DNA of 64,000 nucleotides from contig NC_092354.1 in NCBI RefSeq assembly GCF_963676685.1, forward strand, positions 60,016,001 to 60,080,000, read 5' to 3'. Made by a program: the position numbers. Each line of letters starts with the position of its first letter. Within the stretch, counting starts at the first letter, position 1. This document shows, one piece after another, positions 42,001 through 48,000 of this stretch. This stretch comes from Mytilus edulis. Taxonomy: Eukaryota.

Positions 42001-45000
42001 ATCAATTTTACCCAAGATTGTCTCTGATGCTTATCAAACTTCCAAACTCCAGAACTACATGTAACTAGATTTTGTGACACCTTACAATTCAGACACAGTG
42101 GGGCCAAGGATATGAAATAAAGAGTTTAGCTCTGAACTCAATTTAGGGGATGCCATATCTGCTGCAGGAAAATTGAAGTCTATGTTAAGACTTTCAGAAT
42201 TACACCAAGGTGTGTCTGAAAATATTAAGGATACATTAAAAGAAGCACAATTACTTCACCCTGCCACCAGTGCTCTTATGAGCTATGTCCTCGTTTTGGT
42301 ATTTCTATGGAAATGCATAGCTTGTTAATAGATATCGGAAGATGTGGTATGAGTGCCAATGATACAACACACCATCCAAGTCACAATTTATAAAAGTAAA
42401 CCATTATAGGTCACGGTCCGGTCTTCAACACGGAGCCTAGACTCAAAAGTTCATTTGTTAGTTAATTGATAAAAATAACACAAAGGCGCTTCTGAACCGT
42501 ATATTGTCCCTAAAGATAACAAAAATTCGTAAATGGATGGTTATTACAAAATCAATCGTTTCTGTACCAACATTCGCCCCCATTACATTTTTGGATTGGC
42601 AGTGCAGATACATCATGCATATGCATATGGGAATACGGGTCACTAACATTGATCGAAACTTTGTACTCACATTTCTTTTGTGTTTTCTATGCAAGGTAAG
42701 ACTATATCTGACGAGTTTGACCGAATCATGACGGTATTTACGCTCCAGATAGCATTTGTACTCAAAAACTGTGTTTGCTTTGAACAAACTCTGTCCTACG
42801 CCGAACTTGTTCTTATAAAAAAGGGAAGTGTCTTGTAATGCTAATACGCGTACTGAATCCGCATATGATGACTAAGAGATTGATTCATGTCCCTATTTTA
42901 TGAATACTTGAGCTATTGTGTGTCACGTTTAAAAGTTATATAAGGACCATGATGATTTTGAATTACAACATTAGAAAATTGGCATTGCATTGTATAATTT
43001 TTCATCCTTCCCTTAAAAAATTAATTTTTTTACCAGGATTATCCCACTAAAAAAATGTTCATGCACCAAACTGACTTTGTTTTACACTCATTTTTTTTAA
43101 ACCTCGCATTCGCCTCGTGTGACTATAGTATATTTTGTGTTATAACTGCCCTGTCTAGACTTTGCAAATACACAATATGTGTTTATCTATAACTAGATAC
43201 TAATTTTCACAAAATACACAACCTTTAAGATGCAAAATTAAAAACACTGTTTCAGCGCTTGAATTTTGTTTTTTTCAAAGATAGAAAAAATATTGAAATA
43301 ATTTGATAAACTGGTGTTTTATACTTTAGAAGATAATTCTGTAATATACTATAGTGAAATACTATACACAATAGGAAAGTTTATGGATGTGAAAAGGTCA
43401 AGGACACTTCTTCTTTTGCTATGTCTTAAATGGAAAAATATCAGAAGGTTCCAAATCAACGCCATTTTTTGATGGCAGCTTTTCATATAAGTAGTCAAAT
43501 TTTTCGTTTTAACATCGTTTATACCATATGTTTATGATTGAATCGTTTTTGTAGCATTCTATTGAATAAATATCAGAATATTTCTCCTTTTTGTCCTTGT
43601 GGTTGAAATGTTGATATTTTTAGGTCTGACCTTTGACCTCAATTTCACAAAATTGTGACCACTCTGGATTTTTACGACCCAACTTTTCTTATTATACACG
43701 TTTTCCTCTTTCCATCGATATATAATTTAGGTGTGTGTTCTTCCGGACCATTAAAGTTTTAAAAAATGAACTCTGGTTGCAGTACTAATAGAGCAGTTCC
43801 ATCTTTAGGCTGTTGAAGGAGGACTTTGACTCTACAAATATCTTGTTCATTGAAGATGAGTTCTGTTAACCGTCTGCTTTTGCATTTTGAATCTACATAC
43901 ACAAACGTTTTGATTATAGTTTTATGATAGTTCCCTAACTAGTATGTTAATAGAGGGCTTATATTCTACACATACTTTGAAGATAAAAGTTCATTGACAT
44001 ATCTAGTGCGGTATCATTGTACAATTTCTTTTTCTGGTAAGTCGTCACATTGATAATTATCGATTTTTCAAATGCTCCGTTGTAATGTTTATCATAGCTT
44101 AGATATTTCCTTGTAGCTTGAGTAGTTTGAAAACAAATCATCATTGAATTGCTGAAACACACAACACATTTGACATTTCTTTTCTCTCCATAGGCAAAAA
44201 GTCACATGTGTTTGGAACAGATACTACAACTGGACATTTTGAAGGTCAAATTCAGCTTCATAATGACTCATTTGTTATTGAAAAAGCATCTCGTCATAAC
44301 ATTACAGACGAAGACATCCATACAGTCATTTATAATGTTAAAGATGTAAATATTCTTAAAGAATCACATTTTTGTGGCTTGAACGCAAAAATTATACAGC
44401 TAAAACCGGATCTAAAAGAAAGCATAAATACGCATGACAGTATGGATGAGTTCAAACTTCGATATACATCTGGATTAATCGACAAACAAAGACGATATAG
44501 AAGAGCCGTGGATGCTAAGAAAAAGATATGTGAATTGTATATTCAAGTAGATCATACACTTTTCTTTAGATATAAGAATGTAACAGATGACGTGATAGCC
44601 AATATAAATAATCACGTGATGGCAGTCAATTCTATTTTTAATGCTGTTCGTAAGTACACGATTTCAAGATGTAAATGCCCAATACAAGTTTTTTGTTTAT
44701 CAGCTCATGGACATAATTTGCCATTTTGGCTGTAACGTCATCAGCGTTTTTTCAAAATGATTTACTCAATGTAGAACTGAACTTTAAACATTTGGAAGAA
44801 CTGCAACATTTTTCTGTTTTTCTATTGTTAGCTAAACATACCCCAAATCTGTGTTCTATTTTTTTTTTTTATTAATTGATACATTCAATAATATTTATTT
44901 CAGTAATATTAAAATTTATTAGGTAAGACATATCACACGTAGGTTTTAATTTTACTACTGTTGCTTTTAATTTTTTTTTTTTTTTTTACAGATTTTGATA

Positions 45001-48000
45001 GTAATTCCTCAGCAGATAGTATAGGGTTTTCAATTAAACGAATAAAAATTCATGATGATCTTACAGTTGCCGGATATAATTATTCTGGCAATCATGGCGT
45101 GAATTCAATGCTCTTTCTCCATTCAGAAGAAAACTATGACCAGTTTTGTTTATCTTACATTTTTACACATAGAGACTTTGATAATGGTATTCTTGATCTA
45201 GCTTGGACAGCAGAGCCAGGAACGTCTGGTGGACTCTGTTCGAGGTACACGGTAAGATTCGTTAGTTTAAGTTATACTGTTGGACAATGATTCGATAGTT
45301 CGAGATATACTGTAAACTATCGTTGTTCGATGTATATATTAAAAATCGCTAGTTCTAGCTATACGGTTAGAGTCGTTAGTAAGGGGTAAACAGTTAGATT
45401 CATTAGTTCGAGGTATACTGTTAGAGATGGTTAGTTCGAGTATACGGTAAGATTCATTAGTTCGAGGTAAATGGTAAGATTCATTAGTTCGAGGTAAACG
45501 GTAAGATTAATTAGTTCGAGGTAAACGGTAAGATTCGTTTGTTTGAGTTATACTGTATGATTCGTTTGTTCGTAAATTAATCGTAAGTCTTTCATTGATA
45601 TTTTGTTGTTATTCATGTTTATATACTCTTGAAAATAAATGAGGACTCTTTCAAATAAAAGTTAATTTAGTTTTGTTTATCAATTTTCTTGTAACCATAG
45701 GCTTAGGACATCAAAAATAAAATATAAAATCTATGAATTTGATAATTATCTCTCTTGTTTGGAGACGTGTTGATATTTTGATGTCAAATTCGTGGGTTTA
45801 TTATACGCATTCGCAATTTAATTTGATCCGACGTTGTCGACGTCTTGACAACGTCAATTGTTGTAAATGACGTCATAGGAGTAAGATAACCACGTTTGTT
45901 TCACATGTGAAACTATCGATTTTTATTTCACTGTGAATTCAATGTAATTAATTGCAAACAATGTAATATTGCTACGTTTTAATTTATTTTTATCACGATA
46001 TTATGTTACATACCTTTCAGCTGTACACAGATGGACGGCTTAGTCAAAACACGGGCATAATGACAGATCTTAATTTCGGAAATGACGTCACTACAGCTGT
46101 TTCATACGTAACGTTTGCACATGAGATTGGTCATAATTTTCGATCGTTGGTAACTATGTTTAAATCAAATTTCGTTCGGTAGTTACATGTATATACTGCA
46201 TATTCAGTTGAATTTGCCGGTACAGTATCTACTACATTGTGTTTCAGTATCTGAAGCATTATTTGTAATCAAATTGTACAAACCAAAAAATAATAATAGC
46301 GTCGGATCATTGGTTAACTTCCATTGTTCGAGACAGTGTTATCAAATTACGACGTTTCACGGTTTGTGTTTCCACTTTTGAAAATAATCAAAAATGCTAC
46401 CCACAATACATAATAATCTGATCTGATGAATAACGTTAACATAAGATGCATACAATTGTAGCACGGACCGAAAACTCGTGCGTCTTAAATACATTTAATA
46501 AGGTATGGTCAAGACAAAGAGATTGAAGAGCCAAGAAAAAACATCAAACACAATGACAAAATAAAATGACCATAAAAGAGTCAAAAACCTTCTCTTCACA
46601 TAGTTTACCTACACACGTTCCACAATCTATAGTTTATAAATGTGTTATATGTATTCAGGGCCTGCATGGTATTGTCGAAACATCCGTGATATTAATTAGA
46701 CGTAGAAATGATCTAGATCAAAATATTCCAGTGAATCTGATTAAACTTTGTCATCTAACGTTTGGTGTTTCTTCTTGTCTATGATATGTAAATAGTAATT
46801 TCTCGACAATTGTCCAAAAGGATTTAACTAGTTCTTTTTGGTTTCATCAGCCATTTAACATTTGTATTAGGTTTGAGATTATCAAACATTTTGGCTGCGA
46901 GCATCACTGAAGAGACATTAAGTATCAAGGGCAAACGATACAGTTACAGGGGAGGTAATGACGTTGCTAACGTAAATTGTTATTTTCGCGACGTCAAACT
47001 ATGACTTATCGGGAAAAGATTCAGTTTTCAACTGATTTTTATCATTCAAACTTATCTAACTTGAAAACGAGTTGATGGACCCCTCTTTTTTAAAATGCCA
47101 TTTGGTTTGATTACGCGAGAAGATTATGTGTGCCAAGTTTCATGGAAACGTAAATAGTGCAATTTTTTTTAAATTTGATAAATATACAGCAAAAAATTAT
47201 GTTTTTTTCTACATTCATGAACATTTGATAAATATGAGTTATTTCTGAATAAAAAATGTATAAATTTTTAAGATACTTATAAATACAGAAAGTACAAATT
47301 ATTTAACAAAAACAATTTGTGTTTATCTTTTAAAACAAAAAAGTTATTTCTTTCTTTCGAAAGGGAAAATACGACCACAAATCCGAATTTTGAGCAAATA
47401 TACAAAATTTTGACCTCATTTTACTCAAAAAAGTAGCACATGAAGGCATTTTTTTTGGATAACTTATTTGATTTAATCAGGTAAAAAAAAGTCTATATGG
47501 AAATTTTTATCAAAATGTAAATACGGGATCAAAACTGTATCGTATGCCCATAAAAAGCGGATCTGGTGCATCAAAACTGGAACCGTTAATATTATTATTT
47601 CTTTATTTATAAAAACCAAGATGTAAGAATCTGCCAAAAACCGCTTTGTCTTTTATCGATAGACATTTATTTATGTTTCAGCATGATGAGTCCTCTAACC
47701 CAACATGTGCCCCTGGCGGGTGTAGTGGTAACTATATCATGTTCGCCCAAGCAACTGCTGGAACTAAATCTAACAATATACTATTTTCGTCATGTAGTAT
47801 ATCATCTATGACGCCAATGGTTGCCACACGAGGACGCGATACAGCTAATGGATGTTTCGTGGGTAAGAATTATTCAAATGAATAAAATGAAAGTATTGTT
47901 CACAGGGGACAAATAGACCACTGACCTAACATGAGCAATTTATGAGACAATTGGCCCTTTTTGTACCTCCACCAAATACGTGTTAAAGGTCATTCTATAT

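What the first reader, a model, noticed from the sequence alone, without database searches (positions are those of the whole stretch)
44992..47862. ADAM copy 2 looks like a catalytically crippled pseudo-protease with an open reading frame
Seen: zinc motif [12 protein letters not shown] becomes HEIGHNFRSLHD (GGA>CGA at 46141). GILGLAW becomes GILDLAW, SLNTG becomes SQNTG, an extra Cys appears (PGGCSG) and one Val is deleted in the disintegrin domain, yet no stop or frameshift was seen in 11 exons. Established: the Gly of metzincin HExxHxxGxxH is needed for the turn that positions the third His, and protease-dead Kuzbanian/ADAM10 forms act as dominant negatives. Inference: early pseudogene or decoy/regulator.
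Basis: partly seen in the sequence, partly recalled or inferred. Interest (0 to 1): 0.65.

Follow-up and report, generated by a model that had tools for sequence, protein, structure and literature searches.

The report
Truncated, crippled ADAM10 duplicate in mussel
A partial tandem copy of a blue-mussel ADAM10-like protease gene still reads open, but it lacks the signal-peptide exons and has changed residues that other ADAM10 proteins keep, so it is most likely a recently disabled, decaying duplicate and not a working protease.

Summary
Copy 2 reads HEIGHNFRSL|HD (GGA>CGA at 46141), GILDLAW, SQNTG and PGGCSG, has lost one Val, and all 11 exons are open with their splice sites kept. The window is Mytilus edulis-like; NCBI models copy 2 as the 581-aa "ADAM10-like" protein P0001.

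- **Truncation.** Copy 2 has only exons 4-14. Homology to copy 1 starts in intron 3, so there is no signal peptide and no N-terminal prodomain.
- **Two divergence strata.** Exons 4-8 are about 14% diverged. From intron 8 onward the copies are about 4% diverged, which points to recent homogenisation.
- **Hits at invariant residues.** The motif Gly, the GILGLAW Gly and the SLNTG Leu are each kept in 98 of 98 named ADAM10-like proteins. The Tyr is kept in 97 of 98.

Copy 2 was not neutral for most of its history: branch dN/dS is about 0.23, and there are no stops or frameshifts where about 14 are expected. Its changes nevertheless ignore conservation (6 of 30 at invariant positions; copy 1 has 0 of 17). 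The other truncated copies (P0002, P0008, P0003) carry different private lesions.

Best reading: a formerly constrained paralog, recently disabled. A decoy role is not excluded but is disfavoured. Expression and population frequency could not be checked.

The parts
6890..30088 (+). Copy 1: full-length ADAM10-like gene of 14 coding exons. E1 6890-6950 (signal peptide), E2 19302-19431, E3 20428-20546, E4 21179-21634, E5 21973-22232, E6 23198-23326, E7 23711-23891, E8 24525-24687, E9 25581-25688, E10 26909-26987, E11 27260-27390, E12 28161-28269, E13 29321-29455, E14 29993-30088.
   Evidence: tblastn of P0005/P0006; splice flanks; frames. It differs from M. galloprovincialis P0005 at 4 of 609 aligned residues.
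43993..58933 (+). Duplicated block holding copy 2. It is homologous to 20973-37346, and the homology begins about 200 nt upstream of exon 4, inside intron 3.
   Evidence: Self-blastn. No remnant of exons 1-3 between 30100 and 44200 (best tblastn E = 1.1).
43766..43781 (+). New first coding exon of the NCBI model P0001 (MNSGC plus one base, donor GT at 43782). It lies outside the duplicated block and encodes no signal peptide.
   Evidence: Pattern search. The P0001 N-terminus has at most 5 of 10 hydrophobic residues in any 10-aa window, against 9 of 10 for P0005.
44194..44649 (+). Exon 4': rest of the prodomain (Cys-switch-like HFCGL; RRYRR convertase-type site kept) and start of the catalytic domain. 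Its last base is C instead of G, so the split codon reads His instead of Asp.
44992..45251 (+). Exon 5': catalytic domain. GILDLAW, with GGT>GAT at 45195.
   Evidence: Gly is 98 of 98 in the panel. Pfam Reprolysin_5 scores 24.2 bits against 32.6 for copy 1.
46021..46149 (+). Exon 6': SQNTG (46045), Val>Met (46060), Tyr>Phe (46075), and HEIGHNFRSL with CGA at 46141.
   Evidence: Panel: Leu 98 of 98, Tyr 97 of 98, Gly 98 of 98. Among the 9 proteins found with this exon, only P0001 carries Arg.
47682..47862 (+). Exon 7': the third His and Asp of the motif (HD), and the extra Cys in PGGCSG (47721).
   Evidence: Cys is 0 of 98 at that position.
48397..48556 (+). Exon 8': start of the disintegrin domain. 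One Val codon is deleted after 48428, and Asp>Asn in GWDNDC.
   Evidence: Val is 94 of 97; the Asp/Glu position has Asn in 0 of 97.
48780..56133 (+). Young stratum. From about 48780 (copy 1 about 24900, intron 8) onward the two copies are 94-98% identical, against 82-88% upstream. It holds exons 9'-14': 49496-49603, 50794-50872, 51131-51261, 52021-52129, 53765-53899, 54452-54547.
   Evidence: Sliding identity; per-intron K; exon pS 0.062 against 0.236. Exons 10'-13' are identical in protein to copy 1.
49604..50793 (+). Intron 9', U12-type AT-AC (starts ATATCCTTTT, ends TCCTTAAATCGAAAAC). The same is true of copy 1 (25689-26908).
   Evidence: Flanks, read against the U12 consensus, which is recalled and was not run through a tool.

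Best explanation
Copy 2 is a 5'-truncated tandem paralog of a Mytilus ADAM10-like (Kuzbanian-type) sheddase gene. It was kept by selection for most of its history and has lately lost constraint. In this haplotype it is a null, or nearly null, allele on its way to becoming a pseudogene.

Shown:
- It holds exons 4-14 only.
- Its frame is open.
- It has changed four residues that are kept in 97 or 98 of 98 relatives, lost one conserved Val, and gained a Cys.

Inferred mechanism of the loss:
- Arg in place of the motif Gly blocks the tight turn after the active-site helix, so the third His cannot reach the zinc.
- Asp in GILGLAW and Gln in SLNTG disturb the strand that lines the cleft and the core next to it. 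That structural role is recalled from ADAM17/ADAM10 structures.
- The annotated product starts MNSGCSKK without a signal peptide and without the first ~105 residues of the prodomain. It should therefore not enter the ER, where a domain this rich in disulfides has to fold.

The open frame is explained by past selection, by the short time since relaxation, and by recent homogenisation of exons 9-14 with copy 1.
For: 1. **Truncation.** tblastn finds exons 1-3 once only, in copy 1. There is no remnant upstream of copy 2 (best E = 1.1). Homology starts at 43993, in intron 3.
2. **Invariant residues changed.** The two Gly and the Leu are each 98 of 98, Tyr 97 of 98 and Val 94 of 97 in named ADAM10-like proteins from molluscs to fish.
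3. **Copy-2 changes ignore conservation.** 6 of 30 copy-2-derived changes fall on positions at least 95% conserved. The background is 95 of 428 positions, p = 1.0. For copy 1 it is 0 of 17, p = 0.019.
4. **Lesions are private and differ between truncated copies**.
   - P0002 (M. edulis) keeps GILGLAW and the Val pair, but has Cys>Tyr at a Cys that is 83 of 83.
   - P0008 (M. galloprovincialis) keeps the motif Gly, but has Cys>Tyr (97 of 97) and Gly>Cys (96 of 98).
   - P0003 has Asn>Asp (98 of 98).
   - The full-length sequences c1, P0004, P0005 and P0006 have no private departure.
5. **Tree.** The truncated copies group together (80/80, 93/90, 84/79). Their end branches are 0.022-0.094, against 0.0065 for P0005 and 0.017 for P0004.
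6. **Faster recent change.** c2 differs from P0002 at 8 of 207 residues plus the Val. c1 differs from P0005, across species, at 4 of 609.
7. **Not an old pseudogene.** Branch dN/dS is about 0.23, with about 31 changes seen against 131 expected if neutral. No stop or frameshift is seen against about 7 and about 7 expected.
8. **Role of the Gly.** PMC9848320, passages read.
Against: - **Young stratum.** The copies differ by only 4 nonsynonymous changes, where 13.4 are expected if copy 2 had been neutral since homogenisation (P = 0.003). The 3' half therefore looks constrained until very recently, or still is.
- **Splice sites.** All 11 exons keep their splice sites, including the rare AT-AC intron.
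- **Annotation.** NCBI models the locus as protein-coding with a new spliced first exon. That hints at transcription.
- **Weak excess.** The excess of copy-2 changes is modest: 30 against 17, p = 0.058.
- **Gene models.** 'Private' rests on gene models from other assemblies. P0008 is partly mis-spliced and P0002 skips exon 6. Gene conversion could have erased shared changes in those copies.
- **Unexplained selection.** A copy without a signal peptide that stayed under selection for so long is not explained by this reading alone.
- **Not checkable here.** Transcription, translation and the frequency of Gly>Arg could not be tested.
Confidence: 0.55

Rival explanations
1. Functional pseudo-protease (decoy or regulator). 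Copy 2 is expressed as a membrane protein whose dead catalytic domain no longer matters. Its disintegrin/Cys-rich/TM part is kept to bind substrates or partners of the active ADAM10, acting as a natural dominant negative.
For: - Open frame and intact splice sites in 11 of 11 exons.
- Exons 10'-13' are identical in protein to copy 1. The young stratum has 4 nonsynonymous changes against 13.4 expected if neutral.
- Long-term dN/dS is about 0.2.
- ADAM10 lacking its protease domain acts as a dominant negative (PMC2753297, passage read).
- A coral ADAM10-like model, P0196, naturally reads HQTGH, so dead relatives may occur.
Against: - No signal peptide and no exons 1-3.
- The inactivating changes are not shared by P0008 or P0003, and the structural ones are not shared by P0002. 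There is therefore no conserved dead state.
- Damage also hits the disintegrin domain (Val lost, Asp>Asn), and the catalytic domain gains an unpaired Cys.
- The M. galloprovincialis relatives are annotated as badly truncated models.
- The identity of the 3' half extends to its introns (94-98%), so much of it is homogenisation and not selection.
Confidence: 0.2
2. Alternative 3' body of one locus. Transcripts start at copy 1's promoter and splice exon 3 (donor after 20546, phase 1) to the exon 4' acceptor at 44194, skipping exons 4-14 of copy 1. Copy 2 would thereby gain the signal peptide and the full prodomain. This would explain how a truncated copy stayed under selection.
For: - The duplication breakpoint lies in intron 3.
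- Exon 4' keeps its polypyrimidine tract, its AG and the same phase: G|GC in copy 1, and the model's new exon also joins there.
- Long-term purifying selection on a copy with no 5' exons of its own.
- P0008 in M. galloprovincialis also starts at exon 4.
Against: - There is no direct evidence.
- It needs read-through of copy 1's terminal exon and poly(A) site, and a 23.6-kb intron.
- NCBI models copy 2 as a separate gene with its own first exon.
- It does not by itself explain the recent hits at invariant residues.
Confidence: 0.1
3. Still an active protease with altered specificity.
For: His, Glu, His, His and Asp of the motif are all present. The downstream part of the catalytic domain and the convertase-type site RRYRR are kept.
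Against: - The Gly is 98 of 98 and the panel holds no Arg.
- The chain must turn sharply after it (PMC9848320).
- Three more near-invariant residues are changed.
- No signal peptide.
Confidence: 0.03
4. Artefact: the substitutions are assembly or sequencing errors, or a collapsed or chimeric assembly of alleles.
For: P0001 comes from the same assembly, so its 571 of 571 identity is not independent. Mussel genomes are highly heterozygous (PMC7653742, abstract in the search listing only).
Against: - The copies differ at hundreds of positions, with indels, over 15 kb in a coherent two-strata pattern.
- P0002, from another M. edulis assembly, shares 9 of the 15 copy-2-derived states in the parts it covers (my count from the rows).
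- All the key changes are single clean codon changes in good sequence. The window has no N.
Confidence: 0.03

Closest known systems
ADAM10 / Kuzbanian (M12B adamalysin-type metzincin sheddase)
   Same: Same domain order, and close in sequence. The copy-1 ortholog P0005 matches solved ADAM10 chains best (8esv_A E = 8.8e-123, 6be6_A 2.9e-108), ahead of ADAM17 (3.3e-36). The blocks DFDxGxLGLAW, SLNTG, FAHExGHNFGSxHD and CGNxxVExGExCDCG line up. Copy 2 keeps the exon structure, the TM segment and the tail.
   Different: Copy 2 lacks the signal peptide and the first ~105 residues of the prodomain. It has Arg for the motif Gly, Asp for the LGLAW Gly and Gln for the SLNTG Leu, an extra Cys and one Val fewer.
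Naturally non-catalytic ADAMs (ADAM11/22/23 and others; recalled, not tested here)
   Same: ADAM-fold proteins with a zinc site that cannot work. They are used as receptors or adhesion proteins.
   Different: Those have a dead state that is conserved between species, have signal peptides, and belong to other ADAM subfamilies. Here the dead state is seen in one haplotype only: P0008 and P0003 keep Gly.
Engineered dominant-negative ADAM10/Kuzbanian (ADAM10 lacking the MP domain)
   Same: A protease-dead ADAM10 with intact disintegrin/Cys-rich/TM parts can block shedding (PMC2753297, passage read). Copy 2 keeps those parts nearly unchanged.
   Different: The engineered forms are targeted to the membrane through a signal peptide. 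The annotated copy-2 product has none.
Young or polymorphic duplicate genes of Mytilus (presence/absence variation, 'dispensable' genes)
   Same: A tandem, recently diverging extra copy with different states in different assemblies. M. galloprovincialis holds three ADAM10-like models on one 86.55-Mb contig.
   Different: Whether copy 2 is present or absent in other individuals was not tested. The PAV papers were seen only as title and abstract in the search listing (PMC7653742, PMC10514466).

Membership tests
ADAM10/Kuzbanian-type active metzincin | Reprolysin-type (M12B) catalytic domain | tested here: met
   Exons 5', 6' and 7' hit Reprolysin_5/_2/_3 (E = 4.6e-5, 3.9e-5, 4.7e-4). Single exons score mostly below the whole-protein cut-off and below copy 1 (24.2 vs 32.6 bits; 24.0 vs 33.1). 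P0001 carries PF13574, PF13688 and PF13582, precomputed.
ADAM10/Kuzbanian-type active metzincin | Zinc motif HExxHxxGxxHD with the Gly | tested here: not met
   HEIGHNFRSL|HD, with CGA at 46141. Gly is 98 of 98 in named relatives.
ADAM10/Kuzbanian-type active metzincin | Signal peptide and complete prodomain | tested here: not met
   Exons 1-3 are present once only, in copy 1. No remnant upstream of copy 2. The P0001 N-terminus is not hydrophobic. The scan for a hidden signal-peptide exon gave background numbers: 16 against 15-20.
ADAM10/Kuzbanian-type active metzincin | Disintegrin and ADAM10-type Cys-rich domains, TM segment, short tail | tested here: met
   Exon 8' hits Disintegrin at E = 2.1e-4, below the cut-off as a single exon. 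P0001 carries PF21299. Exons 10'-13' are identical to copy 1. However, one Val is lost, and the NCBI model leaves out exon 9'.
Conserved pseudoenzyme (dead ADAM kept for binding) | Inactivating change shared by orthologs and alleles | tested here: not met
   P0008 and P0003 (M. galloprovincialis) have Gly in the motif. P0002 (M. edulis) has GILGLAW and the Val pair. P0002 does not cover exon 6.
Conserved pseudoenzyme (dead ADAM kept for binding) | Purifying selection on the non-catalytic domains after loss of catalysis | tested here: inconclusive
   Young stratum: 4 nonsynonymous changes against 13.4 expected. The order of events is unknown, and the region was homogenised with copy 1.
Pseudogene (unprocessed, duplicated) | Stop codon, frameshift or broken splice site | tested here: not met
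   None in 11 of 11 exons.
Pseudogene (unprocessed, duplicated) | Loss of essential gene parts (5' exons or promoter) | tested here: met
   Exons 1-3 are absent and the duplicated block starts in intron 3. The promoter was not testable.
Pseudogene (unprocessed, duplicated) | Neutral evolution (dN/dS near 1; changes blind to conservation) | tested here: inconclusive
   Over the whole branch dN/dS is about 0.23, which is not neutral. Yet 6 of 30 derived changes fall on invariant positions, equal to background. A terminal-branch dN/dS needs DNA of other Mytilus, which was not available.
Pseudogene (unprocessed, duplicated) | No transcription or translation | not testable with these tools
   No RNA-seq was on hand. 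The NCBI model with a spliced new first exon hints at transcripts.

The most novel reading that the evidence does not exclude
The truncated copy is not a separate dying gene but a second, alternative 3' body of the ADAM10-like locus. Exons 1-3 of copy 1 splice to exon 4', which is phase-compatible and keeps its acceptor. The product would be a secreted-pathway, membrane-anchored ADAM10 whose catalytic site is dead in this haplotype: a natural, genomically encoded dominant-negative Kuzbanian that tunes shedding. This would explain why a copy with no signal peptide of its own shows long-term purifying selection and a still-protected disintegrin/Cys-rich/TM half.
Probability: 0.1. Interest if true: 0.65.

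Novelty: new member of a known kind. Interest (0 to 1): 0.3.

Why it matters
ADAM10/Kuzbanian is the Notch-pathway sheddase, and natural protease-dead forms of it are not established. If copy 2 were expressed at the membrane, it would be a built-in inhibitor of shedding in an animal known for copy-number variation.

As it stands, it is a clean example of a partial duplicate caught shortly after selection let go: an open frame, splice sites kept, and yet hits at invariant residues. It is also a caution for annotation, because the locus is modelled as an ordinary protein-coding "ADAM10-like" gene.

The unexplained point is long selection on a copy without its 5' exons. That point can be tested directly with long-read cDNA.

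Tried and rejected
- **Remnants of exons 1-3** between the copies: tblastn of P0005 residues 1-110 against 30100-44200 gave a best E of 1.1, which is chance level.
- **Hidden signal-peptide exon** in the spacer 37346-44190 (ATG, hydrophobic run, phase-1 GT): 16 candidates, against 15-20 in three control stretches of equal size, and none with a strong donor.
- **Genes or mobile-element ORFs** between and after the copies: 21 ORFs scanned with Pfam. Only the LINE-type endonuclease at 2-1813(-) passed its cut-off.
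- **Simple head-to-tail duplication:** the spacer 37346-43993 has no counterpart after 58933, apart from one 38-nt match.
- **Names and accessions of P0001 and its relatives:** Whether P0001 carries further isoforms or evidence notes stayed unchecked.
- **Wide search:** Only proteins with an organism name were used: 98 of its 120 rows. Dropped were 4 Mytilus rows and 18 unnamed rows.
- **Structure prediction and complex prediction were not run.** The fold tool returns confidence and secondary structure only, and is not sensitive to single substitutions.
- **Literature:** 5 papers hold both 'Mytilus' and 'ADAM10', and judging by title and abstract none is about these genes.
- the exons of either copy were not joined into a spliced sequence. 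Window sequence was searched exon by exon and dN/dS was summed over per-exon alignments, with split codons left out. Full-length comparisons used the database proteins as given.
- **Not available:** DNA of other Mytilus genomes, the closed metagenome and viral collections, and paper supplements.

Full report
**What the window is.** The window has no N and about 32% G+C. Exon 5' of the finding, searched alone, is 100% identical to P0001, named by NCBI [quoted passage not shown] (581 aa). The next hits are from M. edulis, M. galloprovincialis, M. californianus and M. coruscus. The window is mussel, and nothing in it was taken for human.

**How the spliced model was handled.** Window sequence went to searches exon by exon. 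Substitution counts were made per exon and summed, with split codons left out. Full-length comparisons used database proteins as the tools gave them.

**Anatomy.**
- Self-comparison shows a duplicated block: 20973-37346 matches 43993-58933, introns included.
- tblastn with the full-length M. galloprovincialis protein P0005 finds 14 coding exons for copy 1 (6890-30088), but only exons 4-14 for copy 2 (44194-54547).
- Splice flanks and frames fix the boundaries.
- Homology begins about 200 nt upstream of exon 4, that is, in intron 3. Nothing resembling exons 1-3 lies between the copies (best E = 1.1).
- The NCBI model starts at a 16-nt novel coding exon (43766-43781, MNSGC plus one base, then GT) spliced to the exon 4' acceptor.
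- Its N-terminus has no hydrophobic run: 5 of 10 against 9 of 10 for P0005.
- The model also omits 38 residues, namely exon 9' plus two codons. Exon 9' is nevertheless open, with the same flanks as in copy 1. The reason for the omission is unknown.

| Change | Codon | Position |
|---|---|---|
| Motif Gly>Arg | GGA>CGA | 46141 |
| GILGLAW>GILDLAW | GGT>GAT | 45195 |
| SLNTG>SQNTG | CTA>CAA | 46045 |
| PGGSSG>PGGCSG | AGT>TGT | 47721 |
| One Val codon lost | 3-nt deletion | after 48428 |

All 11 exons are open.

**Are these positions important?** From the 120 best rows of a region search with P0005, I kept the 98 with an organism name outside Mytilus: molluscs, arthropods, cnidarians, placozoans, amphioxus and a fish. 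I dropped 4 Mytilus rows and 18 unnamed rows.
- In these 98, the motif Gly, the GILGLAW Gly and the SLNTG Leu are each 98 of 98.
- The Tyr is 97 of 98 and the deleted Val is 94 of 97.
- Cys at the new-Cys site is 0 of 98.
- The Asp>Asn site in exon 8' is Asp or Glu in 90 of 97, with no Asn.
- Solved ADAM10 chains align over the same blocks.
- A review of astacins states that after the motif's Gly the chain turns sharply into the subdomain that gives the third His (PMC9848320, passages read).

Loss of catalysis is therefore a well-founded inference. It is not a measurement.

**Selection over the long term.**
- Between the copies, dN/dS is 0.20 overall: 0.19 in exons 4-7, 0.35 in exons 8-9 and 0.04 in exons 10-14.
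- Non-coding divergence shows two strata with a sharp step inside intron 8. Identity is 82-88% upstream of copy-1 position ~24900 and 94-98% downstream.
- The 3' half was therefore homogenised with copy 1 fairly recently, by gene conversion or unequal exchange. Its identity is only partly a sign of selection.
- In the old stratum (exons 4-8, dS 0.283) I polarised the amino-acid differences with P0006, P0007 and P0009. Over all 55 differing positions, 30 are copy-2-derived, 17 copy-1-derived and 8 ambiguous. The relative-rate test gives p = 0.058.
- Assuming equal synonymous change on both branches, branch dN/dS is about 0.23 for copy 2 and 0.16 for copy 1. If copy 2 had always been neutral, 131 changes would be expected against about 31 seen.
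- About 7 nonsense changes and about 7 frameshifting indels would also be expected, and none is seen.

Copy 2 is therefore not an old pseudogene. It was under purifying selection for most of the time since the split.

**Signs of recent relaxation.**
- Copy-2-derived changes fall on positions at least 95% conserved as often as chance predicts (6 of 30; background 95 of 428; p = 1.0). Copy-1-derived changes avoid them (0 of 17; p = 0.019).
- The full-length sequences (copy 1, P0004, P0005, P0006) have no private departure from such positions. Every truncated copy has its own:
  - window copy 2 has six, one of them shared with P0002;
  - P0002 has Cys>Tyr at a Cys that is 83 of 83;
  - P0008 has Cys>Tyr (97 of 97) and Gly>Cys (96 of 98);
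  - P0003 has Asn>Asp (98 of 98).
- The motif Arg is found only in P0001 among the 9 proteins recovered with exon 6'. P0008 and P0003 have Gly, and P0002 lacks that exon in its model.
- Copy 1 differs from its M. galloprovincialis ortholog at 4 of 609 residues. Copy 2 differs from the second M. edulis sequence P0002 at 8 of 207 plus the Val.
- A protein tree groups the truncated copies (support 80/80, 93/90, 84/79) apart from the full-length pair (98/95). Their end branches are 0.022-0.094, against 0.0065 for P0005 and 0.017 for P0004. The place of M. californianus is unresolved. The tree averages over both strata.

**What speaks the other way.**
- In the young stratum the copies differ by 4 nonsynonymous and 9 synonymous changes. 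With non-coding K = 0.053, 13.4 nonsynonymous changes would be expected on a neutral copy 2 (P = 0.003).
- Either relaxation is more recent than the homogenisation, or the disintegrin/Cys-rich/TM half is still under selection.
- A copy that seems to have lacked a signal peptide since before the M. edulis/M. galloprovincialis split (P0008 also starts at exon 4) should not have been selectable at all.
- Three ways out:
  - It lost its own 5' exons late.
  - It has an unannotated 5' exon. My scan found only background numbers.
  - It borrows exons 1-3 of copy 1 by splicing. That junction is phase-compatible.
- None of these could be tested without transcript data.

**Verdict.**
- The most likely reading (0.55) is a formerly functional partial paralog that has recently lost constraint. 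In this haplotype it is a null allele, catalytically dead by inference and without a route into the ER.
- A working decoy (0.2) or an alternative 3' body of the locus (0.1) remain open.
- An active enzyme or an artefact are unlikely (0.03 each).
- Dominant-negative ADAM10 lacking the protease domain is real (PMC2753297, passage read), but it is a membrane protein with a signal peptide.
- No paper on Mytilus ADAM10 copies was found: 5 papers hold both words, none on the subject by title and abstract.
- Mussel presence/absence variation (PMC7653742, PMC10514466; titles and abstracts in the listing only) gives a plausible setting but was not tested here.

**Left unchecked.**
- Raw reads, RNA-seq, and population frequencies.
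- DNA of other Mytilus genomes.
- The unnamed hits.
- Paper supplements.

Noticed in passing
window 25689-26908 and 49604-50793: Intron 9 of both copies looks like a U12-type AT-AC intron. It starts ATATCCTTTT, has a branch-site-like TCCTTAA 9 nt before the 3' end, and ends AC. The NCBI model of copy 2 leaves out exon 9' next to it.
   Followed up: partly
window 22219-22526 and 45238-45572: A 27-nt minisatellite of about 11 copies starts at the end of exon 5 in both copies. Its unit repeats the last 12 nt of the exon plus the GTAAGA donor, so the intron begins with a row of look-alike donor sites.
   Followed up: no
window about 24900 / about 48780: Sharp step in copy-to-copy identity inside intron 8, from 82-88% to 94-98%. 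This is a recent gene-conversion or unequal-exchange tract covering exons 9-14 and at least 1.5 kb of 3' flank. The direction of transfer is unknown.
   Followed up: partly
window 2-3653, minus strand: Two long ORFs of 604 and 626 aa. The first has an Exo_endo_phos endonuclease domain (E = 2.4e-13), so this is a LINE-type retrotransposon running off the left end of the window.
   Followed up: partly
window 3913-5251 and 5631-6081: Two tandem arrays upstream of copy 1's first exon, with periods of about 177 nt (94-99% identity between copies) and about 110 nt (92-94%).
   Followed up: no
window 46150-47681: Intron 6 is 1526 nt in copy 2 and 378 nt in copy 1, an extra stretch of about 1.15 kb in copy 2. 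Introns 5 and 12 also differ by large indels. The content was not identified.
   Followed up: no
window 34591-35824, 56140-57204, 62646-63341: A dispersed repeat of about 0.6-1.1 kb in three copies, 79-82% identical, downstream of both ADAM copies. Its ORFs have no Pfam match.
   Followed up: partly
protein P0196 (Oculina patagonica, NCBI 'hypothetical protein'): This coral ADAM10-like model reads HQTGHNFGAM where the other 97 panel members read HExGHN[FMY]GS. It is a possible natural protease-dead ADAM10 relative.
   Followed up: no
proteins P0003, P0005, P0008 (M. galloprovincialis): Three ADAM10-like models lie on one 86,550,376-nt contig: one full-length and two 5'-truncated. The window holds only two copies, so a third may lie outside it or be absent in this M. 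edulis haplotype.
   Followed up: partly
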